Positions 9,433 through 52,461 of a DNA stretch of 64,000 nt are shown in pieces (the stretch's first letter is position 1; each line of letters opens with the position of its first letter). The notes beneath the pieces were generated by a model. It was not told where the DNA came from. It made no database searches and saw only the letters and a list, made by a program, of their open reading frames with translations. Position numbers and translations under genes: made by a program. The DNA is from a bacterium (GTDB lineage: Bacteria; UBA8248): the NCBI GenBank assembly GCA_965207065.1, contig OZ242260.1, positions 2,208,001 to 2,272,000 of the forward strand, written 5' to 3'.

Positions 9433-9978
9433 CTATCTTTTCTTCTTCTTCCGGAACGACTTGTGGCATGCGCCGCATTGCCTGCCGATGAGGCCCACCG
9501 CCTTCTTGATGGCCCCGGGGCCGCCCTTGTAGTGGATTTGCGCCAGGACGGCGGCGTTCGCGGCCAGGCCGTCCGCGATGAGTCCGAATTTCGCCTTTTC
9601 CTTCCAGATGGCGGCGGTCGATGTCGTCTTGCCCGCCAGGGTGTTCTTTTTGAAAGCCTTTTTGATCTTGCTCGCCTTCTTGTACATGTCGCCTGCGGCC
9701 TGGCGCACCTGCTCCTCGACCACCCAGCCGCTGCCTTGCTTCATCGCGGCTCTCAGGCGCTTCATGTCGGCGCCGATGCCGCGCATGAGTTTCTTGCGCG
9801 CCTTCACGGCTGCCTCGTCGCCCTTCATCATCTTTTTGTCCTTCATGGCCATTTTCTTCTTTTTCATGGCCATCTTGTCGCCTTTCTTGCCCATCATCTC
9901 GTCGCCGGCGCAACCTGCGACGAGCGCGCCCGCCAAGGCCAGGACGGCCAGGCTTATGAATGCGTTTTGTTTTTTCAT
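9433..9978 (-). CDS. Class II cytochrome c (c'/c556-like), probable lipoprotein with Met/Lys-rich linker
   Basis: C-terminal CGACHKSFR; AVKARKKLM and AAIW class II motifs; signal peptide ending LVAGC. Confidence 0.85.
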   Translation of the reverse strand: MKKQNAFISLAVLALAGALVAGCAGDEMMGKKGDKMAMKKKKMAMKDKKMMKGDEAAVKARKKLMRGIGADMKRLRAAMKQGSGWVVEEQVRQAAGDMYKKASKIKKAFKKNTLAGKTTSTAAIWKEKAKFGLIADGLAANAAVLAQIHYKGGPGAIKKAVGLIGRQCGACHKSFRKKKKR

Positions 9979-10383: not shown

Positions 10384-10610
10384 AAACCTGAATCGAAGAT
10401 CACCCACATCTCCCACCCGCCGGGCGGGCGTTGATCCCGAAGGCCATTTATGAAACCTTGGAAACTCCCGAGGGATTCATGGAGTCCTGGTTTCAATTCC
10501 GGCGCGGGCCGGTTGACGAGGAGACACGAGAGTCGCCGCGAGGTTTGCGGCGCGTAATCCTTATTTCATTTGCCGCCGGGCGGGCGGCCCCATTTGCGAA
10601 AGGAGCGGAC

Positions 10611-10904
10611 ATGGGCGCATACGTGGTCGGACACATCACCGTCAAGGACGAAGAGGGGTTCAACAACTACGCCGAGCAGGGGCTCGCAATCGTCGCCTCC
10701 GTCGGGGGCGAGGTGGCGGCGAGCGGACAGCTCGTGAAGGTGCTCACCGGCGAGCACGACAGGCAGATGTTCGTCCTCCTGAAGTTCCCCGACCAGGAGG
10801 CGGTGGAGAAATGGTATTACTCGGACGGTTACCAGGCCCTGATTCCGGGCCGCAACGAGGCGGTGGACATCACGTTCATCTCCTATGACGAGCCGGAGGA
10901 GTAA
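10611..10904 (+). CDS. DUF1330-family protein
   Basis: AAGGAG RBS before ATG 10611; MGAYVV...FPDQEAVEKWYYSDGYQ pattern. Confidence 0.8.
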   Translation: MGAYVVGHITVKDEEGFNNYAEQGLAIVASVGGEVAASGQLVKVLTGEHDRQMFVLLKFPDQEAVEKWYYSDGYQALIPGRNEAVDITFISYDEPEE

Positions 10905-11092: not shown

Positions 11093-11911
11093 CTATTTTT
11101 TCCCGGCGGCGGCCGGTCTGGGCGCGGCCAGCGCCAGGGCGGAAGGCGCCCTGCGGAGGCTCAGCATGTAGACCGTGAGCGCTTCGAGATCCTCCGGCTT
11201 CAAATGGCCGTAGGCGGGCATGGCGGAACCGGGCGAAACCTTCTGCGGAAACTTGAAGTGTTCGATGTGCCACTTGGGGTCCTTCCGGCGCTCCCCCGCA
11301 AACGTCAGGTCGGGCCCGACGACCCCGCCGGCGCCCCTGATCTTGTGGCAGGCGAGACAGCCGTTCATCAGATACAGCAGCTTGCCCCTCTGGATGAGGG
11401 GGGCGTCTTTCAGGGCGCCCGCGTGGCAAGGGCCGCAGCTGGCCTGGATGAACCCGCCCCGCAGCAGCGGCTCCTCCCAGAACGGCACTTCTCCGTGGGC
11501 GTCCTGAACGCTCGTCGCCCGCCCCTGGCCCTGGTGGCACACGGTGCAGCCGAACTGCTCGAAGGGGTGCAGCGGGATGGTGGGATGCCTGGCGAAAGGC
11601 TGATCGGCATCCTTGAAAGCCGGGTGCTCGACCCCCCTGTGGCACATGACGCACCTGTCCACGCGCTCGCCTCCGGCCACGATGATCTGCTCGAACTGGT
11701 CCCCGCCCGACAGGGCGGCCTTGCGCTCCTCCTCGGTTCCGGCTCTTTCGACGAGCAATTCACGGAACGTCCGCTGGTAGCCCCGCCATTCACGGTCGTA
11801 GTCCTTCCAGACGGACAGCAGAAAAAACAGGGCCGCGCACACGCTCAGGGCGGCGAAGGCGACCACCCAGCCGAACGGCACATGGGAATCGTTGTGATTT
11901 GAATTCGCCAT
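11093..11911 (-). CDS. Membrane-anchored tetrahaem cytochrome c, partner of the Rieske/cyt b complex
   Basis: N-terminal TM helix; CVMCH, CTVCH, CGPCH, CLACH; PGSAMP axial Met motif. Confidence 0.88.
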   Translation of the reverse strand: MANSNHNDSHVPFGWVVAFAALSVCAALFFLLSVWKDYDREWRGYQRTFRELLVERAGTEEERKAALSGGDQFEQIIVAGGERVDRCVMCHRGVEHPAFKDADQPFARHPTIPLHPFEQFGCTVCHQGQGRATSVQDAHGEVPFWEEPLLRGGFIQASCGPCHAGALKDAPLIQRGKLLYLMNGCLACHKIRGAGGVVGPDLTFAGERRKDPKWHIEHFKFPQKVSPGSAMPAYGHLKPEDLEALTVYMLSLRRAPSALALAAPRPAAAGKK

Positions 11912-11923
11912 TCGTCATCCGCC

Positions 11924-13420
11924 TCAGTGCAGACCCGTTGCCTGCCACGGCCATATCCAGGCCCAGTTGGCGCCGCGGAAATAAAGCCCGATGAACGTGT
12001 AAATCAGATAAGACGTCAGAAAATAAGAATACAGGGCCAGGGCCCCCATCCGGCTCGACCCCGTCCGCCGCCAGATGTAGAGCGAACCGACCGCGAAGAG
12101 GACGATCAGTATGGTCCCCGGATTCAGGAGGTCGACCCATATCTGCGAGGCGCCCGGAACCAGCTTCCGCACCGCGTAGTGCTCGTTCAGGTAGGTCAGG
12201 ACGATTACGACCGGAATGATGACCAGTATCGACCAGAGCGTGATCCGCCGGCCCTGGCCCGAGGTGAACCAGGTTCCCTGGCCCTCGGGATTGCGGTCGA
12301 TGTAGGGAATGGTCATGAGCCCGATAATCGCGGCGGCGGGAACGATGACGCCTCCCGCCAAAGCGGAATAGCTCACGATTTCCTGAAGCCCGAGAAAGTA
12401 CCAGGGCGCCTTGGCGGGGTTGGGCGGATGGTCCGGGTTGGCCAGCTCCTCCAGAGGCGCGTCGAAAAAGTAGGCGACGACGGAGAGGACGGCCACCACT
12501 CCCACGAAGACGACCAGCATCCGGAAAACCGTGTGAGGCCAGCTCATGACCTCTTCTTCCGGCGCCTGGGAGTCGACCATGGGTGTTCTGCCCTCGGCCA
12601 GTTCCACGAGCATGTATGTCTTGTGCGGCGAAAAAGCCGCCGCTTCGCCCGGGGCGGCCTCCGAGGGTGACGCGGGCGGCCGGGAGAGGCCTCCGTCCTT
12701 GCGAATCCGCCAGAAATGGACGCCCATGAGGATCATCATGATTCCCGGCAGGAGTATGACGTGCATGACGTAGAACCGGATCAGCGCATTCTGCCCCACC
12801 GTATCGCCCCCGAGCATCAGCGTGCGGATGTATTCTCCGACCAGCGGCGGATAGCTGGCGATGCTCGACCCGACGGTGATGGCCCAAAACGCGAGCTGAT
12901 CCCAGGGGAGGAGGTAGCCCGTGAAGCTCATCATCAGGGTCGCCCCCCAGAGGAGCACCCCGATGACCCAGTTGAACTCGCGGGGCGCCTTGTAGCTGGC
13001 CGTATAGAACACGCGGCACATGTGCAAGAAGACGACGGCGACCATCGCGTGAGCGGCCCAGCGATGGAGATTCCGCAGGACGACGCCGTAGGAGACGACG
13101 AATTCCAGGTCCTTCATGTCGCTGTAGGCGCGCTCGGTCGAGGGGACGTAGAAGAACATGAGCAAAGCGCCGGTGCCCAGAAGGATCACGAAGAGGAACA
13201 GGGAGATGATGCCGAGTCCCCAGGTATAGGTAGGTTTCAGGCTGTGAACGTGCGTTCGCGCGGGAAGGACGTGCAGGAAGAAATTCGAGAACATGACGGC
13301 CGCGCGATCCAGATCGTTGTCCGGATAGCCCCTGCGGAAGATCGAACGGACGACGCGGTTGTCCGTAAGCCACGATACGGCTTTCTTGCGCCCTGTTTCC
13401 TTAGGGGATTCGGTGACCAT
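11924..13420 (-). CDS. Cytochrome b (fused b6 + subunit IV type, extra C-terminal helices)
   Basis: [36 protein letters not shown] haem ligands; Qo motif variant PAKAPWYF. Confidence 0.93.
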
Positions 13421-13429
13421 GATGACGGC

Positions 13430-13930
13430 TCAGATATTGAAATGCTCGGACGGGGCGACGACTTTGCGCGTATCGACCACGACGCGGCCATCCGGCGATT
13501 TCGTTATGTGGAAGAAGTCGAGCCCCCGAGGCGCAGGCCCCCCGAGCACCTGTCCCCGCCCGTCGAAAGTGCTGCCGTGGCACGGGCACCTGGCCCTCAA
13601 AATATCCGGAGATGCCCCCGGCGCCCCGACGAAGGGGGTAATCACGCAACGAAGATGGGGACAGACGGCCGTGCAGGCCCGGAACCCGTCCTTTTCACGA
13701 AACAGAACGATTTTCTTGTCGGCGAAAAACGTGATGGACCCCACGGTGTATTTCTCCAGGGCGTCGAGTTTCAGAACCGACTCGCCCTCATAAACGACGT
13801 TGGGGAACAGGAAGCGGACGTTGGCGAGGACCGGACCCAGCAGGGAAATCAGAAAGGAAACCCAGCCGAGGCCCAGGAGCATACGTCGCCGGGGGGTCTG
13901 TTCATCCATGCCCGCGCTCATGTCATCCAA
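13430..13930 (-). CDS. Rieske iron-sulfur subunit of a Rieske/cyt b complex
   Basis: RRRMLL TAT-like anchor; CPHLRC and CPCHGSTFD boxes; GPAPRGL. Confidence 0.93.
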   Translation of the reverse strand: MDDMSAGMDEQTPRRRMLLGLGWVSFLISLLGPVLANVRFLFPNVVYEGESVLKLDALEKYTVGSITFFADKKIVLFREKDGFRACTAVCPHLRCVITPFVGAPGASPDILRARCPCHGSTFDGRGQVLGGPAPRGLDFFHITKSPDGRVVVDTRKVVAPSEHFNI

Positions 13931-15968
13931 GCTCCACCCATTCTTCCTGGAAAGAAAAATTCTCGATGGTGACGGCGCCCGTGGGACAGCGCTGGGCGCA
14001 GAGCGAACAACGGATACACTTGTCCGGGTCCATGATCATGGCCGCGCCCCTCTCTACGGCGTCCCCGGCGGACGTTCCAAAGCGGGCCTGTACCAGAGCC
14101 GCCAGGTCCTCTCCTCCCTGCAGGGCTTCGAGGGGAACCATTCGCAGGCAGCGCGACGGGCAGACGTCCACACAGCCGCCGCAGAGGATGCACTTCGCGC
14201 CGTCGAAGATCGGGTTCGCGCTGCAGCGCAGACACCGAAGTCCCTGATCGACCGCTTCCCCGGGCGAATAGCCCAGTTCCACCTCGGCGACGCCGATTCT
14301 GCGCTCGATGGGCAGGGCGTCGGGATTTCGCCGAGACACTTTCTGGTATCCGGGGTTGACGATGGGAAGGGAAAACCCGTCCCCCGGCTCCTGGAGCAGC
14401 GCCTGCTGCAAGGGCTCGACAGAGGCCCACTGAAGATTTGTCTGGACGCCTGCCTGACCACCCGAGAGATAGGTGTGGATTGAGCGGGCGGCCCGGTGGC
14501 CGTTCTCCACGCCCTCGATGAAGATACGGGGGCCCATGGCGACGTCCCCGCCCGCGTACACGCCCGGAGCGGTCGTGGCCAGGGTTTCGGAGTCGACGCG
14601 AATGGTCCCGCGCGGCGTCGTCTCGACGCCGTCCTCCTCGCTGATCCAGGAAAGGTCGGAAGCCTGGCCGACGGCCACGATCACCGAATCGCACGGAATC
14701 ACGCGCTTGCTGTCCGGTTCGAATTCGGGGCTGAAGCGGCCCTCCTCGTCGAAGACGCGGGTGCACGTCTGGACTTCCAGCCCGACCACCCGGCCCTCTT
14801 TCTCCACGATGCGGACCGGCCCCACCCGGGGCTCGAGATCGATCCCCTCTTCGAGCGCCTCTTCAATCTCGAAGTCCGCCGCCGGCATCTCGTCGCGGGA
14901 TTCCAGGCAGATGACGTGGACGTTCCTCGCCCCCACGCGCATCGCCTCGCGGGCCACGTCCATCATCTCGCGCATGAGGACGGCGTCTTCCGTTTGATCG
15001 GCCGCGCTCGGGGAGGCATCTGCCTCGCCGGCCACCCGGGCGGCGACCCGGGCGGCGTCCATGGCCACGTTTCCCCCGCCGATCACGACGACGCGCTCGC
15101 CCAGTTCGACGCGGAAGTTCAGATTCACGTTCAGCAGGAATTCGACGGCCCGGAAAACGCCGTCCGCATCCTGGCCCTCCATGGGAAGAGAGCGGCTCAC
15201 ATGCGCGCCGATGGCGATGAACACCGCCTCGAAGCCTTCCTCGCGAAGGGTGGAGAGGTTGAAGTCCCGCCCGATGGCCTTGTTCACCCGAAGGTCCACG
15301 CCCAGGCTTAAGATGGCCTGAATCTCGGCCTGAACGAGATCGCGCGGAAGGCGGTATTCGGGAACCCCGAGCATCAGCATGCCTCCGGGGACGCCCTGTT
15401 TTTCGAAAACGCTTACGTCATAGCCGAGCAGGGCGAGATCGTGCGCGCAGGTCAGCCCCGCCACGCCCGAGCCGACGACGGCCACCTTTCGCCCCGCCGT
15501 TTCCACCCCCCCGGGCTTGCGGCGGGCCGCTTCCAGCACGGAGAAATCGTTGATGGTGCGCGTGGAGGGCTGAAAGCGGAGGTCGCGCATACTCCTGAGG
15601 CTGCGGTGCGAGAAGGAGGATTCCCCCTTGCCGGACGCCAGATCGGCCTCCACCCCGTAGCGCTCCGTCACGAATCGCTTGAGCGCACGGATGGCCACCG
15701 GCGCATCGATGTTGCCGCGGCGGCAGGCGGCTTCGCACGGCGCCGCGCAGACGCGCCCGCAAACCGACGCGAAGGGGTTGGGGCCCCGGGCGATGATGTA
15801 CGCGCGCTCGAAGTCTTCCTCTGAGATGGCGGTCACGTAACCCCGCGCGTCGGTATGGACGGGACACGCATCCTGACAGCAAATCGTTTTCCGCCAATGG
15901 TCGTGGCCGGGCAACTCGACCCGAAAGGAGCGCCCGGGAGGGAAGGGGTCCCGATTCGCTGAGTCCAT
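13923..15968 (-). CDS. FAD/NAD(P)-dependent Fe-S oxidoreductase (GltD/NfnB/DsrL-like) with C-terminal 2x[4Fe-4S] domain
   Basis: CQDACP, CGRVCAAPCEAACRR, GSGVAG, GGGNVA, YAGGD, CLRC, CILCGGCVDVCP, CIRCSLCAQRCP; start reassigned to ATG 15968. Confidence 0.88.
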   Translation of the reverse strand: MDSANRDPFPPGRSFRVELPGHDHWRKTICCQDACPVHTDARGYVTAISEEDFERAYIIARGPNPFASVCGRVCAAPCEAACRRGNIDAPVAIRALKRFVTERYGVEADLASGKGESSFSHRSLRSMRDLRFQPSTRTINDFSVLEAARRKPGGVETAGRKVAVVGSGVAGLTCAHDLALLGYDVSVFEKQGVPGGMLMLGVPEYRLPRDLVQAEIQAILSLGVDLRVNKAIGRDFNLSTLREEGFEAVFIAIGAHVSRSLPMEGQDADGVFRAVEFLLNVNLNFRVELGERVVVIGGGNVAMDAARVAARVAGEADASPSAADQTEDAVLMREMMDVAREAMRVGARNVHVICLESRDEMPAADFEIEEALEEGIDLEPRVGPVRIVEKEGRVVGLEVQTCTRVFDEEGRFSPEFEPDSKRVIPCDSVIVAVGQASDLSWISEEDGVETTPRGTIRVDSETLATTAPGVYAGGDVAMGPRIFIEGVENGHRAARSIHTYLSGGQAGVQTNLQWASVEPLQQALLQEPGDGFSLPIVNPGYQKVSRRNPDALPIERRIGVAEVELGYSPGEAVDQGLRCLRCSANPIFDGAKCILCGGCVDVCPSRCLRMVPLEALQGGEDLAALVQARFGTSAGDAVERGAAMIMDPDKCIRCSLCAQRCPTGAVTIENFSFQEEWVELG

Positions 15969-15978
15969 GCTCGCGACC

Positions 15979-16365
15979 CTATTTCGCCAGCGAGCGCATG
16001 AATGCGACCAGGTTCTGGAGGTCGGCGTCCGAAAGAACACCGCCCCAGGGTGGCATCAACGGTGATTTCCCTACCGCGACCCCGCCCAGCTTGGTGATCT
16101 TGGCGATATACTCGTCCGTTATGGTCTTCATGTATTTGGCGTCCGTGTGGTTTCGCGGCTTCGGGTTGAGCGCCTTGGCTGCGACGCCGTCTCCCTTGCC
16201 CGTTACACCGTGGCAGGAGGCGCAAAGCTGCTGGTATTTGACCTTGCCGGCTGCAACGTCGCCTTTCTGCTGAGCAGCGCTGTCACCTGCGGACGAGAAA
16301 AAGAGCGCCACAGCGAGCACCGGGCCTGTGCAGATGATAAATCTTCTCGATCGAGACATTCGCAT
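15979..16365 (-). CDS. Periplasmic monohaem class I cytochrome c
   Basis: Signal peptide, CASCHG, PKPRNHT, LMPPWG. Confidence 0.9.
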   Translation of the reverse strand: MRMSRSRRFIICTGPVLAVALFFSSAGDSAAQQKGDVAAGKVKYQQLCASCHGVTGKGDGVAAKALNPKPRNHTDAKYMKTITDEYIAKITKLGGVAVGKSPLMPPWGGVLSDADLQNLVAFMRSLAK

Positions 16366-16412
16366 TCAACCTCCCTCGCGGTTCTGCGGGCTTGTGTAAA
16401 CTTCCACCTCCG

Positions 16413-19079
16413 TTAAAGCGTCCGGGGAACGAAGCTCAAGCTCGTCAGCGAATGCTTGTGCGGAGACTCTCCTATCTTCTTCAACTTCCCCTTGCCCAGC
16501 TTGTAGCGGTAGCGGTTGGTCAGGGGGTCCGGCACCCGGTGAACCACCGAATTGGCCGGGTTCTCGGGAAAACCGAAATAGGCGAAGGTGACGCCCTCCC
16601 GAACCGCGTCGGTGACCATGGCCACGGCGGTGAAGCTCCCCTTGCTCTTCTTGATCCGCCCGGCCTTCATGAGCTCGGTGAAGGTCTGCTCCTTGCCGTC
16701 GACGCCGATGTATCCGCCCGTCTGCACGAGGAGGTCGTCGTTCTCGATGGCCACCAGGTCTCCTGATTCGATGCCCCGGGCGCCGGCGTCTTTGGGGTGT
16801 ATCTCCAGGAACTGCTGCGGCCAGCGCTGCATGATGTAGGGCCGACGCTTGTCGTCGTAGCCGGATTGCCAGAGCTCGTTGATCCGCCCGTTCGTCACCC
16901 ACAACTCGTCTCCCTGCGGGGTGACCCGCTCGTAGAAATCCTTGAAGTCCTCCCAGTAGCTCTTCAGCAAAACCGCCTTGCCGCTCTGGGTCCCGAAGGA
17001 GGTGAGCCACTTCCTGTGCATGGTGGGGCCTTCGGGGGTTCCCAGTTCGAGGGTCTCGTCGTGGAGCCGCTTCGTCCCGACGAGTTCGCCCTTGACCATG
17101 CGGATGGGGGTCTGGATGCCGCCGGTCCCGTATTCGCGGAGCAGTTCGTGGCCCCGTTTCCCCTCGCGCTTGGCCTTCACGACGAGCGGATGGTAGTTGA
17201 GCACCCCTTTTCTTCCGAAGCGGGCCGCCTCCTCGAATATCTGGTTGCTGTCCTTCCAGTCGAAGCCCTTGAAGCCCATCTTCCTCGCGAAAGCGGCGAT
17301 GATCCACCAGTCGGGCCGGGCCTCTCCGGGCGGGTCGGCGAATTTGCTGTAGAGCCTGAGGCGGCGCTCGCCGTTGCAGCGGGTGAAGTCTTCCTCGCCC
17401 CAGGTGGCGGCCGGAAGAATCAGATCCGAATACTCGGTTCCGATGGGAGCAACCGGGTAGATATCCTGGTGGGCCACGACCATGCCGCCGGCGTCCACTC
17501 GCCGCTTTAAGGCGTCCACCGCCGAATCGACGTCGAAGCTCTCGATCTGATGCGGGTTGCGGCGCGTCAATCGCTGGAAGACGTCCATCAGCTCCTGTGA
17601 CGCCGCCATGGCCTGGCACCAGGTGGTTCCGATGACCCATGCGAAGCGAACGTGGCCGTCCACGACCCAGCGGTCGAGGTCGATCTCCTTCTTGCGGCGC
17701 CCCGGCGCCTTCTCCGGAGATAAGGCCCTCGGGTAACCGGCCGCGCCCATCCAGCCCCGTTGGTGCCCACCGCCCCGGGAGATAACACGGCCCGGCCGCG
17801 ACCCGGCGCCGCAGACCAGCCCGAGGGCCGCGAACGAAGCCGTGTTCCCGAAACTGTTGCACCAGTAGTTTCCCTTCTCGAGCATGAACGAGGTCTTCTT
17901 GCGCGTTCCGTCGGGCTTGGGCTTGGCGAGGATTTCGGCTGTCTTTCGAATGTCCGCCGCCGGCACGCCCGTGATCTTCGCGGCTCGCTCCAGTTCGGCG
18001 TAGGGATAGCTCAGGATCCACTTCCTGTAGCCCTCGAAGTCGGTCCCGTACTTGCCCCAGGTCGTGACCCACTGCCACGGCGTGTTGCGGGTGCCGCGTC
18101 CCATGCCGGAGCCGATCTCCCACTTGTTCGACACCTTTCTCGCGATAAACTCCTTGTCCTCCCAGCCGTTCTCGAGGATCAGGCGGATGATGGCCAGTTG
18201 GAGAACCGTATCCGTTCCCGGAATCACGGGGAGGAAGAGGCCTCCCTGCTTCTCGCCGTAGGCCACGCCCGAGGTCTTGCGCGGAAGGGCGAAGACCAGC
18301 TTCTTGTTCGGCGTTTTTCCGCCCATGATCCACGAGGTGAATAGCACCGACTTGGTCTCCCACGGGTCGACGCCCGAGAAGAAAATAACCTCGGCCTCTC
18401 CCCAGTCGTCATAGGAGGCGCTGAAGGGATTGATGCCTGAAAAATCGATCCCCGGCGTATCCGGACCGGGACCCGGCTTGTCGTGCGGGGCATACGCCGG
18501 CGTTCCGATGGCTCGGAAGGCGAGTTTGGAGATGGCGTAGGTGTTTTCGAAATACTGATAGGAATACGTCTTCATGGCCCAGGCGTGTTCGCCGAACTTG
18601 TCGAGCACGTGTTTCGAGATTCCCGCCATGACGCCCATGGCCGTATCCCACGAGACCTCCTGCAAGGTTCCGCGAACGCGCATCATCGGCTGGCGCAGGC
18701 GGTCCTGCGAGGGTTCGTTGGGATTGTAGAGCTTCTTCGCCAGGACGCCGCCCCGGATGGAGTGGTTTCCCCCGACGTTCACGACCTTCGCATCCTTGTC
18801 CGGCATGACGATGACGTGGTGTGGGCGGCCGTTCACCATGATGATGTTGTGCATGTTCGGGCTGACCCAGCCGCCGCTCATGATGCCGGTGGGAAAATCG
18901 ACGCCCAGCGCGTTCTGGTTGGCCCTGGGCCCGCCCTCGCGCCCGATCGGCCAGCGGTAGACCTTGTACCCGCAGCCCACGATGCAGTAATCGCACGCCG
19001 TGGTGAAAACCTCCGCGTTTCGCGGGGGGAGGGGGACACTGTCTTCCGCAAGGTAGTAGTTCGTTACCTTTCCTGCCAT
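16413..19079 (-). CDS. idrA: DMSO-reductase-family molybdoenzyme, AioA-like; probable iodate reductase large subunit
   Basis: VPLPP..A....TACDYCIVGCGYKVYRWP [3Fe-4S] motif (canonical AioA has CHFC); GGHQRG, NGERRLR, TNGRINELWQS; no signal peptide; adjacent to a Rieske gene and two peroxidases. Confidence 0.8.
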   Translation of the reverse strand: MAGKVTNYYLAEDSVPLPPRNAEVFTTACDYCIVGCGYKVYRWPIGREGGPRANQNALGVDFPTGIMSGGWVSPNMHNIIMVNGRPHHVIVMPDKDAKVVNVGGNHSIRGGVLAKKLYNPNEPSQDRLRQPMMRVRGTLQEVSWDTAMGVMAGISKHVLDKFGEHAWAMKTYSYQYFENTYAISKLAFRAIGTPAYAPHDKPGPGPDTPGIDFSGINPFSASYDDWGEAEVIFFSGVDPWETKSVLFTSWIMGGKTPNKKLVFALPRKTSGVAYGEKQGGLFLPVIPGTDTVLQLAIIRLILENGWEDKEFIARKVSNKWEIGSGMGRGTRNTPWQWVTTWGKYGTDFEGYRKWILSYPYAELERAAKITGVPAADIRKTAEILAKPKPDGTRKKTSFMLEKGNYWCNSFGNTASFAALGLVCGAGSRPGRVISRGGGHQRGWMGAAGYPRALSPEKAPGRRKKEIDLDRWVVDGHVRFAWVIGTTWCQAMAASQELMDVFQRLTRRNPHQIESFDVDSAVDALKRRVDAGGMVVAHQDIYPVAPIGTEYSDLILPAATWGEEDFTRCNGERRLRLYSKFADPPGEARPDWWIIAAFARKMGFKGFDWKDSNQIFEEAARFGRKGVLNYHPLVVKAKREGKRGHELLREYGTGGIQTPIRMVKGELVGTKRLHDETLELGTPEGPTMHRKWLTSFGTQSGKAVLLKSYWEDFKDFYERVTPQGDELWVTNGRINELWQSGYDDKRRPYIMQRWPQQFLEIHPKDAGARGIESGDLVAIENDDLLVQTGGYIGVDGKEQTFTELMKAGRIKKSKGSFTAVAMVTDAVREGVTFAYFGFPENPANSVVHRVPDPLTNRYRYKLGKGKLKKIGESPHKHSLTSLSFVPRTL

Positions 19080-19091
19080 GATGCGTCCTCC

Positions 19092-19634
19092 TCAGCGCTG
19101 TACCGGCGCAAGATTCGAGTGGTAACCGTATAGCAGCCCCATCATCCCGATCGCGTAGATGTCGTCCCCGCGGGTCTCCAGTACGACCTGGGGGAGGCTT
19201 TCCGTGGCCTGCCCGGCCCCGACCATCCCGTGCTTCATCAGGTCGAAGGTCGTCAGATGGAACGGGCACGGGCCAATGGCCTTGTGCTGCGCGTTGTATG
19301 TGCCCTGGAGGGGACCGCCCATGTGGGTGCACAGGGTGCTGAACGCCACGACGTCTCTCCTGGGGCCGACGCCGCCGCCTGCGGCGACGCCCAGCTTGAC
19401 CAGCATGCACCCCGAGAAGACGTCCTTCCACGGATACTGGAAGAACTGGGGGGTATCGACTTTGAGGGCGCTTAGCTTGCCGATTTTCCGGCGGGGATAC
19501 TCAGCCCTCTGCAGGGCCGCACCGGCCAGGCCGGGGATGCCCTCGACCAGCACGATGCTCATGGCGGTTCCGCCGGCCAGGAGAAAGGCGCGCCGCGAGA
19601 CGCAAGGCCGGGTTTCCTTGGCTTCCTGAGTCAT
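19092..19634 (-). CDS. idrB: AioB-like Rieske small subunit; probable IdrB
   Basis: TAT signal SRRAFL; CTHMGG and CPFH ligands (disulfide Cys absent); GQATESLPQV, GLLYG. Confidence 0.8.
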   Translation of the reverse strand: MTQEAKETRPCVSRRAFLLAGGTAMSIVLVEGIPGLAGAALQRAEYPRRKIGKLSALKVDTPQFFQYPWKDVFSGCMLVKLGVAAGGGVGPRRDVVAFSTLCTHMGGPLQGTYNAQHKAIGPCPFHLTTFDLMKHGMVGAGQATESLPQVVLETRGDDIYAIGMMGLLYGYHSNLAPVQR

Positions 19635-19644
19635 GGATTCCTCC

Positions 19645-20784
19645 TTACTGCATGGCCGCGTACGGCGGCAGTTCGGGGGGCTTCATGAGCAAAGGCTCAT
19701 CGCTCGATAACGATTCCAGGAAGGCGAGCAGGTCTTCCTTCTCCTCGTCAGAAAGCCCCAGTTTCTTGAGAAGCGGACTCTTGTTCGCGTCCTCTCCCCC
19801 TCCTTCGTCATAAAAGTCAATGACCTCATCCAACTCGAAAAACGCGCCGTTGTGCATATAGGGCGCCGTGTATTTCAGCTCCCTGAGGCTGGGGGTACGG
19901 AACCTCCCCGTATCAGCCTTGCGCTTGGTGGTGTAGTAGAGCCCCAGGTCCCGGTCCGCTTTCCGGTAGACGGATTCGGGAACGCCTCTGATCACGTGCT
20001 GGAAGCGAAGCGTTATCTGCCTCAAGGGGTCTTCCTCGAACGCGGGGTTCTTCGGCACGCCGACGTTGTGATAGTCCTCATCCGAGAGGAGAGGGCCGTT
20101 GTGGCACTGGACGCACCCCGCCTTTCCTTGAAAAAGAGCCAGCCCGCGCTCAGCGCTTTCCGAGAGCGCCTTCTTGTCCCCTTTCATGAAGCGGTCGAAC
20201 GGCACGTCCTTCGCATTCGAAACTATGGTGCGCTCGAAGGCCGAGATGGCCCGCCATGCGTCGTCGATGGTCGGCCAGGGGGATCCGAACACCGTACGGA
20301 AGCGCTTGACGTATTCGGGAATCTGGCGCAGGCGCTCCTCCATCATCATGGTGTCGCCGTTTCCGGCCACGTTGCCCGTGGCGGCGCTCTTGGCCTGGGC
20401 TTCGAGGCTCGGGACCTCGCCCGCCCAGAACAGTTTTGCGTAATAGGCGGAATTGAGGATCGTCTGGGAATTCCGCCAGTGCTGCGTGCCCGGGTAGCCC
20501 CGGCTCAGGTCCCCGCCGTCTCCCCAGCCGCTCTCGGGGCTGTGGCAGGAGGCGCACGACGTGCTGGCGTCCCCCGACAGGCGGGCGTCGAAAAAGAGCA
20601 GCTTGCCCAACGCCACCTTGGCGGGTGACATGGGATTGTCCGCAGGCACCGGAACAGGCGGCAAGGGCCCCAGCGGAGGGAATTTCCCCTTCTCGGCCGC
20701 GTCCGCTCCTCCCACCAGAAGGGCGGCGATGAAGCAGACGGCCATCGTGGAACCCAGGAAGCAGTTTTTCATTCGCGCGTTCAT
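19645..20784 (-). CDS. Di-haem cytochrome c peroxidase/MauG family (IdrP-like)
   Basis: LGKLLFFDARLS, CASCH, CVQCH, FRTPSLRE..TAPYMHNG; GAGGAG RBS before ATG 20784. Confidence 0.9.
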   Translation of the reverse strand: MNARMKNCFLGSTMAVCFIAALLVGGADAAEKGKFPPLGPLPPVPVPADNPMSPAKVALGKLLFFDARLSGDASTSCASCHSPESGWGDGGDLSRGYPGTQHWRNSQTILNSAYYAKLFWAGEVPSLEAQAKSAATGNVAGNGDTMMMEERLRQIPEYVKRFRTVFGSPWPTIDDAWRAISAFERTIVSNAKDVPFDRFMKGDKKALSESAERGLALFQGKAGCVQCHNGPLLSDEDYHNVGVPKNPAFEEDPLRQITLRFQHVIRGVPESVYRKADRDLGLYYTTKRKADTGRFRTPSLRELKYTAPYMHNGAFFELDEVIDFYDEGGGEDANKSPLLKKLGLSDEEKEDLLAFLESLSSDEPLLMKPPELPPYAAMQ

Positions 20785-20794
20785 GGCCGTCTCC

Positions 20795-21901
20795 TCAATT
20801 ATCGCCGAGTTTGCGGAGTTCATAATCGGGAATTTTCGGTTCTTTCGCGGAAACCACCTCGCCCGAGAGGCTCTTCATGAATTCCACCAGCGCCTTTTGC
20901 TCACCCGCATCGAGTCCCAGCGGCTTGAGCCGCGGACTCTTGTTCGGGCCGCTCCCGCCGCCCTTGTTATAGAAGGCGACGACGTCCTCAAGCGCGGCGA
21001 GCGCGCCGTTGTGCATGTAGGGAGCCGTCCGGGCGACTTCGCGCAGGGTCGGCGTGCGGAACTTGCCCCGGTCGCGCTCCTCTTTCGTCACGACGTAGAG
21101 GCCCGGGTCGGCCCTCAGATTCATGAAGTTCGGGACGCCGATCACCTTGTTGAAGCGGCGGAACGTGATGTGGCGCAGCGGGTCCTTGAATATCTGTTCG
21201 TTTTCGGGAACGCCGAGCGCATGAAATCCGCCGTCGCTCAAAAGAGCGCCATTATGGCACCCGGCGCATCCGGCCTTCCCCCGGAAGAGGGCGAGACCCT
21301 TCTGCGCCTCGGCGGAAAGGGCCTTTTTGTCGCCCTTCAAGTAGTTGTCGAAAGGCACGTTCCTGGACGTGATGGTATGAAGGAACGCCGCGATGGCCTT
21401 GAGCGAGCCGCCGAAGGAAGGCTCCCCGCCATAGGCCTCCTTGAACATCTTGACGTAGGCGGGAACCTGCTTGAGCCGCTCGGGGAACAGACGGCCGTCC
21501 ACCAGCATGAAGTGGGCTTCCGTCAGGTGGTCCCGCACGAGGGTGGGCAGGTCGGCCCCGCTCAGGCGACCGTCCCAGAAAACGCGCTTGTTGTAGGCGG
21601 CGTTCAGGAGCGTCTGGGCGTTCCGGAAATACTTGCTGCCGGGATAGCCCGTAGAGAGGCTCTGCCCGTCGCCCCATCCCCTGGCGGGTTGATGGCAGGT
21701 GGCGCAGCTGATGCCTCCGTCCCCCGACATGCGGGGGTCGAAGAACAGATGCCGGCCCAGTTCGGTCTGCGCGGGCTTCTGGGCCCTGGGCGCCGGCAGG
21801 GGTTCGAGAGATGCCCCCCACCCCGCTGCAGGGAGCAAGACCCAGGCGCTCAGCAGGATTCCGCAGAGTATCCGGCGCCGGATGGCGCGAACTAAATCCA
21901 T
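20795..21901 (-). CDS. Di-haem cytochrome c peroxidase/MauG family (IdrP-like), paralogue
   Basis: LGRHLFFDPRMS, CATCH, CAGCH, FRTPTLRE..TAPYMHNG; signal peptide. Confidence 0.9.
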   Translation of the reverse strand: MDLVRAIRRRILCGILLSAWVLLPAAGWGASLEPLPAPRAQKPAQTELGRHLFFDPRMSGDGGISCATCHQPARGWGDGQSLSTGYPGSKYFRNAQTLLNAAYNKRVFWDGRLSGADLPTLVRDHLTEAHFMLVDGRLFPERLKQVPAYVKMFKEAYGGEPSFGGSLKAIAAFLHTITSRNVPFDNYLKGDKKALSAEAQKGLALFRGKAGCAGCHNGALLSDGGFHALGVPENEQIFKDPLRHITFRRFNKVIGVPNFMNLRADPGLYVVTKEERDRGKFRTPTLREVARTAPYMHNGALAALEDVVAFYNKGGGSGPNKSPRLKPLGLDAGEQKALVEFMKSLSGEVVSAKEPKIPDYELRKLGDN

Positions 21902-21973
21902 TCTTCCCTCCTCCCAAGCTGGCTGTTCTATCTCCTGTAAGACATCCGTCCCGTATATGCTGGAAATACGGCC

Positions 21974-22717
21974 TTATTTCGAAGAGAACGTGAAGGCGGC
22001 GGTCTTCTTCCCCCCGGCGGTTATGGTGATCTTCTTCTTCTTGACCCCCAGGGCCGGGTGCCACGCCCGCAGGGAATATTTCCCCGGAGGAACGTCGTTG
22101 ATCTCGAAGCTCCCGTCATCGTTCACGAGCGCGTAATAGGGATTCCTGGCCACGAAGAGAAAGCCCTTCATCCAGTTGTGCACGTCGCACTCGATACGGA
22201 CGATGGGGCTGCGCCGGACCTTCGCCCTGCGGACGACTTTCTTCCGCTGCTTGGGCTGGGAGATGTTCCACATGGAGCGTTTCGCCCGGCCGATGATCTC
22301 GTAGGTGTGGATGTTGTGGTGGGCGTCGTCGCTGTTCAGGATGGTGACCTTGCCCCCCTCGGCGACGACCTGGAGGTAGGGGACGTAGGCGCACTTCTTC
22401 TGGTCCACCACGGCGCTCTGGATTTTCTCGGGGTAAGCCTTGCCCTTCTTCACCTTGTCGAGATAGACGACAACGCCCCTGAGGGCGCCGTCCTTCGCGT
22501 CCACCTCCTGGCGGGTGACCTGGCCCTCCCCGCAGGCGTGCTGGTCCTTGGTGATGATGTATTTGACGGGCTTGGGAGGCTCGCCCTCGAAGCTCACCTT
22601 GCCGGTGACGGCGCCGCCGCCTGTGATAGATACGACTTTGTACTTCGCCAGGGAAGCGTCTGGAAAAAAGAGAAAAGGCAGGGACAAAACGAAAGGCAAG
22701 AAAAATTTACGAATCAT
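21974..22717 (-). CDS. Exported cupredoxin-like / carboxypeptidase-regulatory-like domain protein
   Basis: Signal peptide; DQKKCAYVP, NSDDAHHNIH, CDVHNWM, DGSFEINDVPPGKYSLRAWHP. Confidence 0.75.
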   Translation of the reverse strand: MIRKFFLPFVLSLPFLFFPDASLAKYKVVSITGGGAVTGKVSFEGEPPKPVKYIITKDQHACGEGQVTRQEVDAKDGALRGVVVYLDKVKKGKAYPEKIQSAVVDQKKCAYVPYLQVVAEGGKVTILNSDDAHHNIHTYEIIGRAKRSMWNISQPKQRKKVVRRAKVRRSPIVRIECDVHNWMKGFLFVARNPYYALVNDDGSFEINDVPPGKYSLRAWHPALGVKKKKITITAGGKKTAAFTFSSK

Positions 22718-23076
22718 TGCGAAAGCTCCCCCACGAAGTCCTGCATTGGCTCACGGCAACCCTGTCATCTATGAATCCGAGTCGTAATCCATCCTCCTCA
22801 TCAGCGGAGTGTCGGCGCGGAACGCGAACTTCCTTGCGTTTCCGGTCCCGTCCGAACGTGTGAGAAGCGGTATCGACACCCCTGAAACGCTACGGATATC
22901 CGGTCCTGAATCCATGAGTGCCGCGCGCTCTTTATAAGCTTGTTCCTGTTTTCAATATAAGGACAACGCTCGAATGTTGCAACAAAATGGAAGTCCGGTT
23001 TTTCCCCGATGGGCGGGGCGTTGCAAGGGCCGTTGCCAGGGTGGCGAACGCTCCCTCCTTCCCCGGGAGCGCCCCA

Positions 23077-52448: not shown

Positions 52449-52461
52449 CATGGTTAGTAAC

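What the first reader, a model, noticed from the sequence alone, without database searches (positions are those of the whole stretch)
16413..21901. AioA-like enzyme looks like iodate reductase rather than arsenite oxidase
Seen: CDYCIVGC instead of AioA CHFCIVGC; APHDKPGPGPD where AioA has IHNRPAYNSE; GGHQRG versus GGHQEG; a Rieske subunit lacking the disulfide Cys (CTHMGG/CPFH); two tandem peroxidases; no ars or aioXSR genes in the window. Known: the paired peroxidases distinguish idr from aio clusters. Inference: iodate reduction in an organism that would probably be auto-annotated as an arsenite oxidiser. The reaction direction and substrate cannot be proven from sequence.
Basis: partly seen in the sequence, partly recalled or inferred. 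Interest (0 to 1): 0.78.

Follow-up and report, generated by a model that had tools for sequence, protein, structure and literature searches.

The report
Iodate reductase cluster mislabelled arsenite oxidase
This gene cluster most likely lets an uncultured bacterium breathe iodate, although automatic annotation would call it an arsenite oxidase, and here it sits beside its own electron-supply genes.

Summary
Four minus-strand genes (16413-21901) encode two dihaem peroxidases, a TAT-signalled Rieske subunit and an 888-aa molybdoenzyme, in the order idrP2-idrP1-idrB-idrA. NCBIfam scores both subunits above the arsenite-oxidase cut-offs. Yet the large subunit is only about 30% identical to characterised AioA, against 58% to IdrA of the iodate-respiring isolate Azonexus hydrophilus NCP973.

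In two trees it falls in the peroxidase-linked Idr crown, apart from AioA and from seven intermediate representatives. It carries the Idr state at 18 of 19 discriminating columns. The peroxidase pair precedes idrBA in 70 of 74 related loci and in 0 of 5 aio loci.

Caveat: its subclade (records labelled Nitrospinota, Rokubacteria, NC10) already appears in a published IdrA tree, but I found no experimental test of it. My trees cannot say whether it lies inside or beside the tested clades (AU p = 0.50). The disulfide-less Rieske is not diagnostic.

Beyond the finding, the conserved unit is longer (11093-22717). It adds a predicted type-1 copper protein and a Rieske/cytochrome b complex with an NAD(P)-binding iron-sulfur flavoprotein. 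Verdict: a new member of a known kind; substrate still unproven.

The parts
16413..19079 (-). idrA-like catalytic subunit, 888 aa. It has an N-terminal C-x2-C-x3-C [3Fe-4S] motif, molybdopterin oxidoreductase and dinucleotide-binding domains, and no signal peptide of its own.
   Evidence: Translation. Pfam PF18465, PF00384 and PF01568. 58% identity to Azonexus hydrophilus NCP973 IdrA against about 30% to AioA. Trees. 18 of 19 signature columns in the Idr state.
19092..19634 (-). idrB-like Rieske [2Fe-2S] small subunit, 180 aa, with the TAT motif SRRAFL and the motif CxH-x18-CxxH without disulfide cysteines.
   Evidence: Translation. PF00355. The x18 spacing is found in 73 of 83 IdrB-type proteins, against x13-15 in 5 AioB. 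The same motif is described for strain DN11 IdrB (PMC10149662, passages).
19645..20823 (-). idrP1-like dihaem cytochrome c peroxidase (CCP/MauG family). The ORF is 392 aa, and the true start is probably a later Met because the ORF overlaps the upstream gene by 29 nt.
   Evidence: Translation with two CxxCH. PF03150 E 4.5e-43. It is the orthologue of the gene directly upstream of idrB in the related loci. Naming follows the order idrP2, P1, B, A in PMC10989891 (passages).
20795..21901 (-). idrP2-like dihaem cytochrome c peroxidase, 368 aa.
   Evidence: Translation with two CxxCH. PF03150 E 3.7e-42. It takes the first position of the four-gene order in the related loci.
21974..22717 (-). Secreted 247-aa protein predicted to be a type-1 copper (cupredoxin) domain fused to a C-terminal beta-sandwich.
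   Evidence: H134, C177, H180 and M183 are invariant in 25 of 25 aligned homologues. AlphaFold2 pLDDT 91.2. Best PDB fold matches are amicyanin, plastocyanin and pseudoazurin (prob 1.00, TM on target 0.5-0.69). A homologue lies in 33 of 82 idr loci. Pfam sees only the C-terminal CarboxypepD_reg/fn3_3 part.
13923..16040 (-). NAD(P)-binding FAD / iron-sulfur protein of the GltD/NfnB type with an extra 2x[4Fe-4S] ferredoxin domain. The ORF is 705 aa; homologues of 681-685 aa suggest a start about 20 codons later.
   Evidence: Pfam PF07992, PF14691 and PF12838. NCBIfam NF009410 'NAD(P)-binding protein', 437 bits, below its cut-off of 516. Best solved relatives are NfnA/NfnI-type and related flavoproteins. 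It lies next to idr in 10 of 82 loci.
13430..13930 (-). Rieske iron-sulfur subunit of a cytochrome bc/b6f-type complex, with the canonical CPHLRC...CPCH motif including the disulfide cysteines.
   Evidence: Translation. PF00355. Weak b6f PetC matches.
11924..13420 (-). Cytochrome b, 498 aa (b6-like N-terminal half plus a C-terminal membrane part).
   Evidence: PF00033 and PF13631. NCBIfam cytochrome b6 and ExtP/ExtQ-type matches, below cut-offs.
11093..11911 (-). Membrane-anchored tetrahaem cytochrome c, 272 aa, with four CxxCH and an N-terminal hydrophobic helix. It is the last gene of the conserved block.
   Evidence: Translation. PF00034 and PF13442. Nucleotide similarity to five of the ten compared loci (L009-L012, L017) stops within about 120 bases past each end of 11093-22717 on at least one side; L017 shows this on both sides.

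Best explanation
The region encodes a periplasmic, molybdenum-dependent iodate reductase system of the Idr type (idrP2-idrP1-idrB-idrA). It is not an arsenite oxidase.

Proposed mechanism:
1. IdrB carries the twin-arginine signal and takes the cofactor-loaded IdrA across the membrane with it.
2. Electrons from the quinol pool pass through the Rieske/cytochrome b complex encoded immediately downstream.
3. They move on to c-type haem and/or the predicted blue-copper protein encoded immediately upstream.
4. From there they pass to the IdrB Rieske cluster, the IdrA [3Fe-4S] cluster and the Mo-bis-pyranopterin centre, which reduces IO3- to hypoiodous acid.
5. HIO ends up as iodide. The two dihaem peroxidases remove the peroxide or other oxidant formed on the way.

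Shown here: the gene content, its order, the cofactor motifs, the placement with Idr and away from Aio, and the conservation of the whole 11.7-kb block.

Inferred from published work on other strains: the substrate, the direction of electron flow, the role of the peroxidases, and the use of the neighbouring bc complex and copper protein as the electron supply.
For: 1. Identity gap. tblastn against 72,556 plasmid records gives three hits at 49-59%: Azonexus hydrophilus NCP973, Thiothrix subterranea and Vibrio sp. THAF190c. The next best is 31.5%, which is true AioA. Solved AioA structures align with E of about 1e-82 but with different active-site motifs.

2. Experimental anchor. L001 is from A. 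hydrophilus NCP973, listed among five isolated iodate respirers that reduce 1 mM iodate to iodide (PMC13455634, passages). Its locus reads ccp-ccp-small-large-cytochrome c-moaA.

3. Trees.
- FastTree: 110 rows, 886 columns, rooted on NapA and FdhF. The window sits in an 87-leaf crown (support 0.919). Seven 50%-cluster representatives and then the AioA clades lie outside it.
- IQ-TREE: LG+C20 PMSF, 67 of those 110 rows, 887 columns. The crown has 46 rows (SH-aLRT 92). The window is in a 31-row clade (95) together with the Beta/Gammaproteobacterial group that holds NCP973.

4. Signature columns. 19 columns separate the proteobacterial Idr group (at least 90% one residue) from canonical AioA (at least 7 of 8 another residue). 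The window has the Idr state at 18 and the Aio state at 1. The seven intermediate representatives have 6-15 Idr states.

5. Active-site motifs. H-N-R-P-A-Y-N-S-E and GGHQEG in AioA (8 of 8 for H, N, R, P and both E) are H-D-K-P-G-P-G-P-D and GGHQRG in the window. Arg at the last motif occurs in 53 of 53 sequences of the window's group and 33 of 34 of the proteobacterial group.

6. Synteny. Of the 74 related loci (of 82) with at least 3 kb upstream:
- 70 have both peroxidases in the same order
- 2 have one ORF the size of both
- 2 have none
The 5 aio loci have none, and instead carry arsenic genes (ars or arsR) beside aioBA, with aioX/aioR as well in two of them.

7. Literature.
- Paired peroxidases define idr neighbourhoods, and the deeper branches include Rokubacteria, Lindowbacteria, NC10 and Planctomycetaceae (PMC8692401, passages and supplementary file 2).
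- The electron path bc1 -> cytochrome c551 -> IdrAB -> HIO is that paper's model.
- IdrA has a [3Fe-4S] cluster and no amino-acid Mo ligand (PMC10100899, passages).
Against: - No verified sequence from Pseudomonas sp. SCT, Denitromonas IR-12, Azoarcus DN11, Aromatoleum TC-10 or Roseovarius azorensis was in my sets. The only sequence from a tested strain is NCP973. The tested marine clades are represented by congeners or same-phylum MAGs, not by the tested sequences themselves.
- The window's subclade has no experimental test in the papers I read. That subclade is the 53-leaf group of records labelled Nitrospinota, Rokubacteria, NC10, Chloroflexota, Planctomycetota and others.
- Whether the subclade lies inside or beside the clades with tested members is unresolved. 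FastTree puts it as sister to them. IQ-TREE puts it inside. The AU test does not reject the sister arrangement (lnL difference 0.09, p = 0.503).
- The loop after the conserved His differs between the window's group and the proteobacterial group. It is HDKPGPG(N/P)D and nearly invariant in the window's group. In the proteobacterial group it is variable, with Ser in 25 of 34 at the position aligned to AioA's Ala. The window has Gly there.
- No chlorite-dismutase-like gene, moaA or two-component sensor lies beside the cluster in the ORFs scanned.
- NCBIfam's arsenite-oxidase models are passed. They pass equally for loci with peroxidases, so this only shows that the models do not separate the two enzymes.
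Confidence: 0.78

Rival explanations
1. It is an Idr-like enzyme of the same architecture that acts on a different high-potential substrate or has broader specificity. Candidates are another halogen or chalcogen oxyanion such as bromate, chlorate or selenate. The peroxidases would again deal with reactive by-products.
For: - The window's 53-leaf group is untested in the papers read.
- Its position relative to the tested clades is unresolved.
- Its active-site loop HDKPGPG(N/P)D is nearly invariant and differs from the loop of the tested proteobacterial group.
- The neighbouring cytochrome b scores just under the cut-off of a model named for a selenite/tellurite reduction operon: NF040969, 266 bits against 290.
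Against: - 18 of 19 signature columns agree with the tested group.
- The four-gene synteny with both peroxidases is shared across the whole crown.
- Published authors treat all idrABP1P2 holders as likely iodate reducers (PMC8692401, passages).
- Two phylogenetically distant clusters gave iodate reduction when expressed in E. coli (PMC13455634, passages).
Confidence: 0.15
2. It is a divergent arsenite (or antimonite) oxidase, as automatic annotation says. It would feed electrons from As(III) to cytochrome c or the copper protein.
For: - Both subunits exceed NCBIfam's arsenite-oxidase equivalog cut-offs.
- Every source name shown for the full-length relatives is arsenite oxidase or arsenate reductase (azurin).
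- The fold and cofactor set are shared with AioAB.
- A blue-copper partner would echo the azurin in the enzyme's official name.
Against: - Identity to characterised AioA is about 30%.
- The protein lies outside both AioA clades in both trees.
- The AioA motifs HNRPAYNSE and GGHQEG are not kept.
- No ars, aioX, aioS or aioR-type gene was found among the 47 other ORFs scanned, whereas all 5 aio loci inspected have arsenic genes beside aioBA.
- Two peroxidases are present, and 0 of 5 aio loci have them.
Confidence: 0.04

Closest known systems
IdrABP1P2 iodate reductase of dissimilatory iodate-reducing bacteria (Pseudomonas sp. SCT, Denitromonas iodatirespirans IR-12, Azoarcus sp. DN11, Aromatoleum toluclasticum TC-10, Azonexus hydrophilus NCP973)
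   Same: - Same four genes in the same order, P2-P1-B-A.
- [3Fe-4S] motif in A, and no side-chain Mo ligand position.
- TAT-signalled Rieske B with CxH-x18-CxxH.
- Two dihaem peroxidases.
- 58% identity of A to the NCP973 protein.
- 18 of 19 signature columns.
   Different: - It belongs to a separate subclade, whose records are labelled Nitrospinota, Rokubacteria or NC10, with no tested member.
- The active-site loop differs: HDKPGPGPD.
- It has no adjacent c551-type cytochrome, moaA or sigma-54 two-component pair as in the NCP973 locus.
- Instead it is flanked by a cupredoxin-like gene and a complete Rieske/cytochrome b complex with an NAD(P)-binding flavoprotein.
Putative idr cluster of Candidatus Methylomirabilis iodofontis (bin48; locus L051) and other uncultured-phylum idr clusters
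   Same: It is a genome-only prediction in an uncultured lineage with the same P2-P1-B-A order (PMC10989891, passages).
   Different: - The IdrA proteins are only 56% identical.
- L051 falls in the other half of the crown, with the marine Alphaproteobacteria and SAR324 sequences.
- L051 shows no bc complex or cupredoxin homologue in the 10.7 kb held.
Arsenite oxidase AioAB (Alcaligenes faecalis 1G8K; Pseudorhizobium banfieldiae NT-26 4AAY)
   Same: - Same fold and cofactor chain: Mo-bisPGD, [3Fe-4S], Rieske [2Fe-2S].
- Small gene before large gene.
- TAT export through the small subunit.
- NCBIfam equivalog models are passed.
   Different: - About 30% identity.
- Opposite proposed direction of catalysis.
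- Different residues next to the conserved His and Arg/His pair.
- Rieske spacing x18 against x13-15.
- Peroxidases are present.
- No ars or aioXSR genes.
Rieske/cytochrome b complexes of anammox bacteria that carry an NAD(P) oxidoreductase subunit (Kuenenia stuttgartiensis Kuste4569-4574, Kustd1480-1485)
   Same: The gene set is the same: Rieske + cytochrome b + multihaem cytochrome c + an FAD/iron-sulfur NAD(P) oxidoreductase encoded together. For the anammox complexes a quinol-bifurcating, NAD(P)H-producing role driven by a high-potential acceptor has been proposed (PMC12954380, passages).
   Different: - The cytochrome c here is tetrahaem, not hexa- or octahaem.
- The cytochrome b here is one 498-aa protein.
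- Homology of the subunits to the Kuenenia proteins was not tested, because I had no Kuenenia sequences.
- The high-potential partner suggested by gene adjacency is iodate reductase, not a nitrite reductase.

Membership tests
Idr (iodate reductase IdrABP1P2) | The catalytic subunit clusters with IdrA of iodate-reducing strains and apart from AioA. | tested here: met
   The window falls in the crown with A. hydrophilus NCP973 IdrA. FastTree: 87 leaves, support 0.919. IQ-TREE: 46 rows, SH-aLRT 92. The AioA clades and 7 intermediate representatives lie outside. Caveat: NCP973 is the only tested strain in the trees, and placement inside versus beside the tested clades is unresolved (AU p = 0.503).
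Idr (iodate reductase IdrABP1P2) | Conserved gene order idrP2-idrP1-idrB-idrA, with two dihaem cytochrome c peroxidases directly upstream. | tested here: met
   The order is present in the window. The same order is found in 70 of 74 related loci with at least 3 kb upstream. 0 of 5 aio loci have peroxidases.
Idr (iodate reductase IdrABP1P2) | IdrA has an N-terminal [3Fe-4S] motif and no amino-acid ligand to Mo. | tested here: met
   C29-x2-C32-x3-C36 and PF18465 at E 1.1e-36. The residue aligned with AioA's Ala is Gly203. The feature is as stated in PMC10100899 (passages). Cofactor content itself is not testable here.
Idr (iodate reductase IdrABP1P2) | IdrB is a Rieske protein with CxH-x18-CxxH and a twin-arginine signal. 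| tested here: met
   CTH-x18-CPFH and SRRAFL. The x18 spacing is found in 73 of 83 IdrB-type proteins, and a TAT-like motif in 68 of 83. The motif is described for DN11 IdrB in PMC10149662 (passages).
Idr (iodate reductase IdrABP1P2) | Iodate-dependent activity or induction, and loss of iodate respiration when idrA is removed. | not testable with these tools
   This needs expression, enzyme assay or culture. None exists for this lineage in the papers found.
AioAB arsenite oxidase | Passes the curated NCBIfam equivalog models for both subunits. | tested here: met
   TIGR02693 scores 458.7 against 359.05, and TIGR02694 scores 123.5 against 95.65. RefSeq also names the proteins of the peroxidase-linked NCP973 locus as arsenate reductase (azurin) subunits, so that naming does not separate Idr from Aio.
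AioAB arsenite oxidase | Active-site residues of AioA: the H-N-R-P-A-Y-N-S-E loop and R-x-G-G-H-Q-E-G. The residue names His195, Glu203, Arg419 and His423 of A. faecalis are recalled, not from a call. | tested here: not met
   His, Arg and His are kept. Asn->Asp200, Arg->Lys201, Ala->Gly203, Glu->Asp207 and Glu->Arg441 differ. The canonical AioA clade has N, R, P and both E in 8 of 8. A search for papers naming these residues found none in the library.
AioAB arsenite oxidase | Clusters with characterised AioA, with arsenic genes (aioXSR, ars) nearby. | tested here: not met
   The window lies outside both AioA clades. No such gene is among the 47 other ORFs scanned. All 5 aio loci inspected have ars and/or aioXSR genes.
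NAD(P)-linked Rieske/cytochrome b complex (anammox type) | Rieske, cytochrome b, multihaem cytochrome c and an FAD/FeS NAD(P) oxidoreductase are encoded as one unit. | tested here: met
   Genes at 11093-16040 on one strand. The set is kept next to idr in 10 of 82 loci in three different gene orders. This shows gene content only.
NAD(P)-linked Rieske/cytochrome b complex (anammox type) | Subunits homologous to the Kuenenia complexes, with NAD(P)+ reduction by quinol bifurcation. | not tested
   No Kuenenia sequence was at hand. No source name in the 120 listed relatives of the flavoprotein mentions anammox bacteria. Activity is not testable here.
Cupredoxin (type-1 copper protein) | Greek-key beta-barrel with a His...Cys-x2-His-x2-Met ligand set. 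| tested here: met
   H134, C177, H180 and M183 are invariant in 25 of 25. The model has pLDDT 91.2. Fold matches are amicyanin, plastocyanin and pseudoazurin. Pfam gives no cupredoxin hit at E <= 1e-5. Copper binding itself is not testable here.

The most novel reading that the evidence does not exclude
In this lineage the iodate reductase is hard-wired to its own NAD(P)-linked Rieske/cytochrome b complex.

Quinol oxidation would be bifurcated. One electron runs downhill through tetrahaem cytochrome c or the blue-copper protein to IdrAB and iodate (E0' about +0.7 V). The other is pushed uphill through the b haems and iron-sulfur clusters to FAD and NAD(P)+, as proposed for the anammox Rieske/cytochrome b complexes.

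Iodate respiration would then make reducing power directly, which would suit an autotroph.

If the hosts, which NCBI labels Nitrospinota, include nitrite oxidisers, this would also give a genetic handle on the proposed iodate-dependent nitrite oxidation in oxygen-deficient waters.
Probability: 0.2. Interest if true: 0.8.

Novelty: new member of a known kind. Interest (0 to 1): 0.45.

Why it matters
Iodate reduction controls how much iodide is in sea water and groundwater. That in turn bears on ozone chemistry, iodine nutrition and the mobility of radioactive iodine-129.

Genomes with this cluster are still named arsenite oxidisers by standard pipelines. The relatives with a source name that were listed to me carried that name, and 582 relatives were found among the scanned species-representative genomes. 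Arsenic cycling is therefore over-counted and iodine cycling under-counted.

This window adds a species from a branch with no cultured or tested member. It also shows that in this branch the reductase travels with a copper protein and a dedicated, NAD(P)-linked bc-type complex. That is a concrete, testable proposal for how electrons reach the enzyme.

Tried and rejected
As a result the IdrA sequences of SCT, IR-12, DN11 and TC-10 could not be recognised among the unnamed hits.
- My genome scan query was led by the Azonexus protein in the hope of pulling in those strains. The 80 loci kept (of 582 confirmed) did not include them.
- A second homologue search with the Azonexus protein gave no named tested strain either.
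- The 50%-identity representative library gave useful intermediate clades, but without names or context. I therefore cannot say whether those intermediates have peroxidases.
- The missing Rieske disulfide was tested as a discriminator and rejected.
- The search for papers naming the AioA active-site residues found nothing. Those residue numbers remain recalled.
- A first search for idrA together with copper-protein terms was too loose to be informative: its 10 listed papers all lack idrA. I replaced it.
- I did not fold IdrA. The tool returns no coordinates, so it could not map the signature residues onto the substrate funnel.
- I did not run a complex prediction for the copper protein with IdrAB. 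Transient electron-transfer pairs are a poor case for it.
The gene context of the closest metagenomic homologues (for example the 94% hit P0005) therefore stayed unchecked.

Full report
**What is there.** On the minus strand, one search lists four consecutive ORFs:
- 20795-21901 (368 aa)
- 19645-20823 (392 aa)
- 19092-19634 (180 aa)
- 16413-19079 (888 aa)

The two upstream proteins each match the dihaem cytochrome c peroxidase family (PF03150, E 3.7e-42 and 4.5e-43) and each has two CxxCH motifs. The 180-aa protein is a Rieske protein with SRRAFL near its N-terminus and the cluster motif CTH-x18-CPFH. The 888-aa protein has the '3Fe-4S Rieske_3' domain, the molybdopterin oxidoreductase domain and the dinucleotide-binding domain.

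**Automatic annotation would say arsenite oxidase.** NCBIfam's equivalog models for the large and small subunits are both passed: 458.7 bits against 359.05, and 123.5 against 95.65. Where a source name is shown for the full-length relatives, it is 'arsenite oxidase' or 'arsenate reductase (azurin)'. The RefSeq annotation of the Azonexus plasmid uses the same name.

**It is not AioA.**
- tblastn against 72,556 plasmid records found 850 records with a match. The best three are 58.4% (Azonexus hydrophilus NCP973), 59.0% (Thiothrix subterranea, cut by the record start) and 49.2% (Vibrio sp. THAF190c).
- The next best is 31.5%. From there on the hits are AioA of Ralstonia, Thermus, Burkholderia, Ensifer and NT-26.
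- I fetched five aio loci: Thermus thermophilus HB8, Ensifer adhaerens, Ralstonia solanacearum, Cytobacillus firmus and Pseudorhizobium banfieldiae NT-26. None has a peroxidase. Four have ars resistance genes beside aioBA (the Thermus locus only an ArsR-family regulator), NT-26 and Ensifer have aioX/aioR, and NT-26 has no ars gene in the stretch fetched.
- The Azonexus and Vibrio loci have ccp-ccp-small-large, like the window.

**Link to experiment.** A. hydrophilus NCP973 is named as one of five isolated dissimilatory iodate reducers and was shown to reduce 1 mM iodate to iodide (PMC13455634, passages). The same paper reports that idrABP1P2 clusters from one Alphaproteobacteria MAG and one SAR324 MAG raised iodate reduction when expressed in E. 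coli (passages). Three aerobic marine Alphaproteobacteria with idr clusters reduce iodate, and idr genes are induced in Roseovarius azorensis (PMC11445184, abstract). Knock-out, proteomic and transcript evidence for IR-12, SCT and DN11 comes from passages of PMC8692401, PMC10746228 and PMC10149662.

**Relatives and synteny.** A scan of species-representative genomes found 598 pattern matches. Of these, 582 encode a relative, and the best 80 were kept. I compared all ORFs of these 80 loci, the two plasmid loci and the window against the window's proteins by blastp. Of the 82 loci, 74 have at least 3 kb upstream of the large-subunit gene:
- 70 have both peroxidases as separate ORFs in the window's order.
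- 2 (L003, L054) have one ORF the length of both.
- 2 (L070, L077) have none.
- The other 8 loci are cut too short to judge.

This matches the published statement that idrAB is always preceded by idrP1P2 (PMC8801600, passages) and the order P2, P1, B, A (PMC10989891, passages).

**Trees.** For the first tree I used the large subunits of 77 of the 82 loci; five truncated ones (L040, L076, L078, L079, L082) were left out. To these I added the window, five AioA, NapA and FdhF as outgroups, 17 full-length 50%-cluster representatives and 8 other hits. That made 110 rows and 886 columns.

FastTree places the window as follows:
- It sits with six loci at 96-98% identity. Two of these carry the NCBI label Nitrospinota.
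- That set lies inside a 13-leaf clade, which is sister to a 7-leaf Rokubacteria/NC10 clade.
- These lie inside a 53-leaf group that also holds Chloroflexota, Planctomycetota, Lindowbacteria and others.
- The 53-leaf group is sister to a 34-leaf group of Proteobacteria, SAR324 and Methylomirabilis. Together they form an 87-leaf crown (support 0.919).
- Outside the crown come seven representatives (P0127; P0126, P0131 and P0133; P0129; P0138; P0135), and then the AioA clades.

An IQ-TREE run with a site-heterogeneous model on 67 of the 110 rows keeps the crown (46 rows, SH-aLRT 92) but moves the window's clade. It now lies in a 31-row clade (95) with the Beta/Gammaproteobacterial group that holds NCP973. 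The marine Alphaproteobacteria, SAR324 and Methylomirabilis form the other half, 15 rows.

Forcing the FastTree arrangement costs 0.09 log-likelihood units (AU p = 0.503). Membership of the crown is therefore supported. Bracketing by tested enzymes is not settled.

**Active-site columns.** The loop that reads H-N-R-P-A-Y-N-S-E in 8 canonical AioA reads H-D-K-P-G-P-G-P-D in the window. GGHQEG reads GGHQRG.

The Arg is found in 53 of 53 sequences of the window's group, in 33 of 34 of the proteobacterial group and in five of the seven intermediates. The two outermost intermediates (P0135, P0138) keep the AioA-like HNRP...E and GGHQEG. They may correspond to the published 'unknown clade', but I cannot check that.

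Across the alignment, 19 columns separate the proteobacterial Idr group from canonical AioA. The window has the Idr residue at 18, its group has 17-19, and the intermediates have 6-15.

One difference inside the crown deserves notice. At the position of AioA's Ala, the proteobacterial group mostly has Ser (25 of 34), while the window's group has Gly (52 of 53).

**The Rieske argument.** None of 83 IdrB-type proteins has the disulfide cysteine pair. NT-26 and Ensifer AioB lack it too, while Thermus, Ralstonia and Cytobacillus AioB have it. The spacing between the two halves of the motif separates the families better in this small sample: x18 in 73 of 83 IdrB-type proteins, against x13-15 in the 5 AioB.

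**What is already in print.** PMC8692401 says that deeper-branching members of the IdrA clade include Planctomycetaceae, Rokubacteria, Lindowbacteria and NC10 (passages). Its supplementary file 2 lists 'Nitrospina sp. (HAX46043.1)' and 'Rokubacteria bacterium GWA2_70_23' directly after the Halobiforma and Dehalococcoidia names, and carries the clade labels 'Arsenite Oxidase', 'Unknown' and 'Iodate Reductase'. The extract keeps the order of names but not the brackets.

The Rokubacteria record is my L004 (IdrA 75% identical to the window's). Lindowbacteria is P0078 (64%). The window is therefore a new species-level member of a branch already drawn into the Idr family. It is 90-91% identical in nucleotides to the nearest genomes over the cluster.

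A comparative-genomics paper on Nitrospinota does not contain the words arsenite, aioA or molybdopterin in its main text (PMC10839748, find).

**Beyond the finding: the conserved unit is longer.** Downstream on the same strand lie four genes:
- a 705-aa NAD(P)-binding FAD/iron-sulfur protein of the GltD/NfnB type
- a canonical Rieske protein
- a 498-aa cytochrome b
- a membrane-anchored tetrahaem cytochrome c

Upstream lies a secreted 247-aa protein that Pfam sees only as a CarboxypepD_reg-like sandwich. Its homologues keep His134, Cys177, His180 and Met183 in 25 of 25 sequences. The AlphaFold2 model is confident (pLDDT 91.2). Its best structural matches are amicyanin, plastocyanin and pseudoazurin. 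I read it as a type-1 copper electron carrier.

A homologue of the copper protein lies in 33 of 82 idr loci across several phyla. The flavoprotein-Rieske-cytochrome b set lies next to idr in 10 of 82 loci:
- downstream in eight loci of the window's clade
- upstream in L048
- upstream in the distant L036, whose subunits are only 34-48% identical to the window's

In five of the ten closest loci compared (L009-L012, L017), nucleotide similarity stops within about 120 bases past at least one end of 11093-22717; in L017 this holds at both ends.

The published electron path for Idr is quinol -> bc1 -> cytochrome c551 -> IdrAB (PMC8692401, passages). Here the bc-type complex is part of the cluster.

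Rieske/cytochrome b complexes with an NAD(P) oxidoreductase subunit are known from anammox bacteria. For those, quinol bifurcation to NAD(P)+ driven by a high-potential acceptor has been proposed (PMC12954380, passages). That is the basis of my most novel reading. It rests on gene adjacency only.

Literature searches on this point:
- No paper in the library holds both 'idrA' and 'cupredoxin'.
- No paper holds four of 'iodate', 'idrA', 'Rieske', 'cytochrome b' and 'electron bifurcation'.
- Subscription papers, including the original Idr paper of Yamazaki et al. 2020, were not searchable. I know that paper only through citing papers.

**Verdict.** This is an Idr-type iodate reductase cluster that pipelines mislabel as arsenite oxidase. 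It is a new member of a known kind, from an untested branch, with a conserved and apparently undescribed electron-supply module. Substrate and direction remain inferences. I put iodate reduction at about 0.78, a related substrate at about 0.15 and arsenite oxidation at about 0.04.

Noticed in passing
window 21974-22717 (-): A secreted 247-aa protein annotated by Pfam only as a CarboxypepD_reg/fn3_3 sandwich has an invariant His-Cys-His-Met set and a predicted cupredoxin fold. Homologues sit in 33 of 82 idr loci from several phyla. No paper in the library holds both 'idrA' and 'cupredoxin'.
   Followed up: yes
window 11093-16040 (-): A Rieske / cytochrome b / tetrahaem cytochrome c set with a GltD/NfnB-like NAD(P)-binding FAD-FeS protein lies directly downstream of idrA. 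The same set is next to idr in 10 of 82 loci in three different gene orders. It resembles the NAD(P)-linked Rieske/cytochrome b complexes of anammox bacteria (PMC12954380, passages).
   Followed up: partly
window 11093-22835 against L009, L010, L011, L012, L017: In five of the ten closest loci compared, nucleotide similarity (87-91%) stops within about 120 bases past at least one end of the cupredoxin-idr-bc block, at both ends in L017. In L007 and L013 it runs on to about 6 kb. The block may sit in different contexts, or the flanks may diverge faster.
   Followed up: partly
window 9433-9978 (-) and 10431-10904 (+): A cytochrome c' gene and a DUF1330 gene follow the block. Both are also present after the block in L007 and L013.
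   Followed up: no
L070 9075-11996 and L077 9908-12952: Two loci (labelled Alteromonadaceae and Thermoanaerobaculia) form their own clade inside the Idr crown. They have idrB-idrA but no peroxidase genes in about 9 kb upstream, and longer large subunits (973 and 1014 aa by ORF). They are exceptions to the peroxidase rule.
   Followed up: no
proteins P0135, P0138, P0129, P0126, P0131, P0133, P0127: Seven 50%-cluster representatives branch stepwise between AioA and the Idr crown. The two outermost keep AioA-like HNRP...E and GGHQEG. The inner five already have GGHQRG. Their gene context is unknown.
   Followed up: partly
proteins P0143, P0166, P0167, P0169, P0172 and others: Many proteins of 1100-2100 aa match only the N-terminal half (about residues 19-446) of the window's large subunit at 34-39% identity. 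They are fused or multidomain relatives of unknown nature.
   Followed up: no
window 41280-41708, 52430-53566, 57843-58532, 59706-60374: The second half of the window holds four transposase genes or fragments (Mutator-family piece, IS110, DDE_3, IS1595-like). G+C there dips to 0.53-0.57, against 0.61-0.68 around the idr block.
   Followed up: no
window 44771-46621 (+): An ORF joins PAS sensor domains to a HlyD-type membrane-fusion protein. It sits inside a MacB-type efflux set (outer-membrane factor, ABC ATPase, FtsX permease).
   Followed up: no
window 1399-3129 (+): One 576-aa ORF carries a TatD-type hydrolase domain followed by a radical-SAM domain. This may be a true fusion, or two genes merged by my longest-ORF rule.
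   Followed up: no
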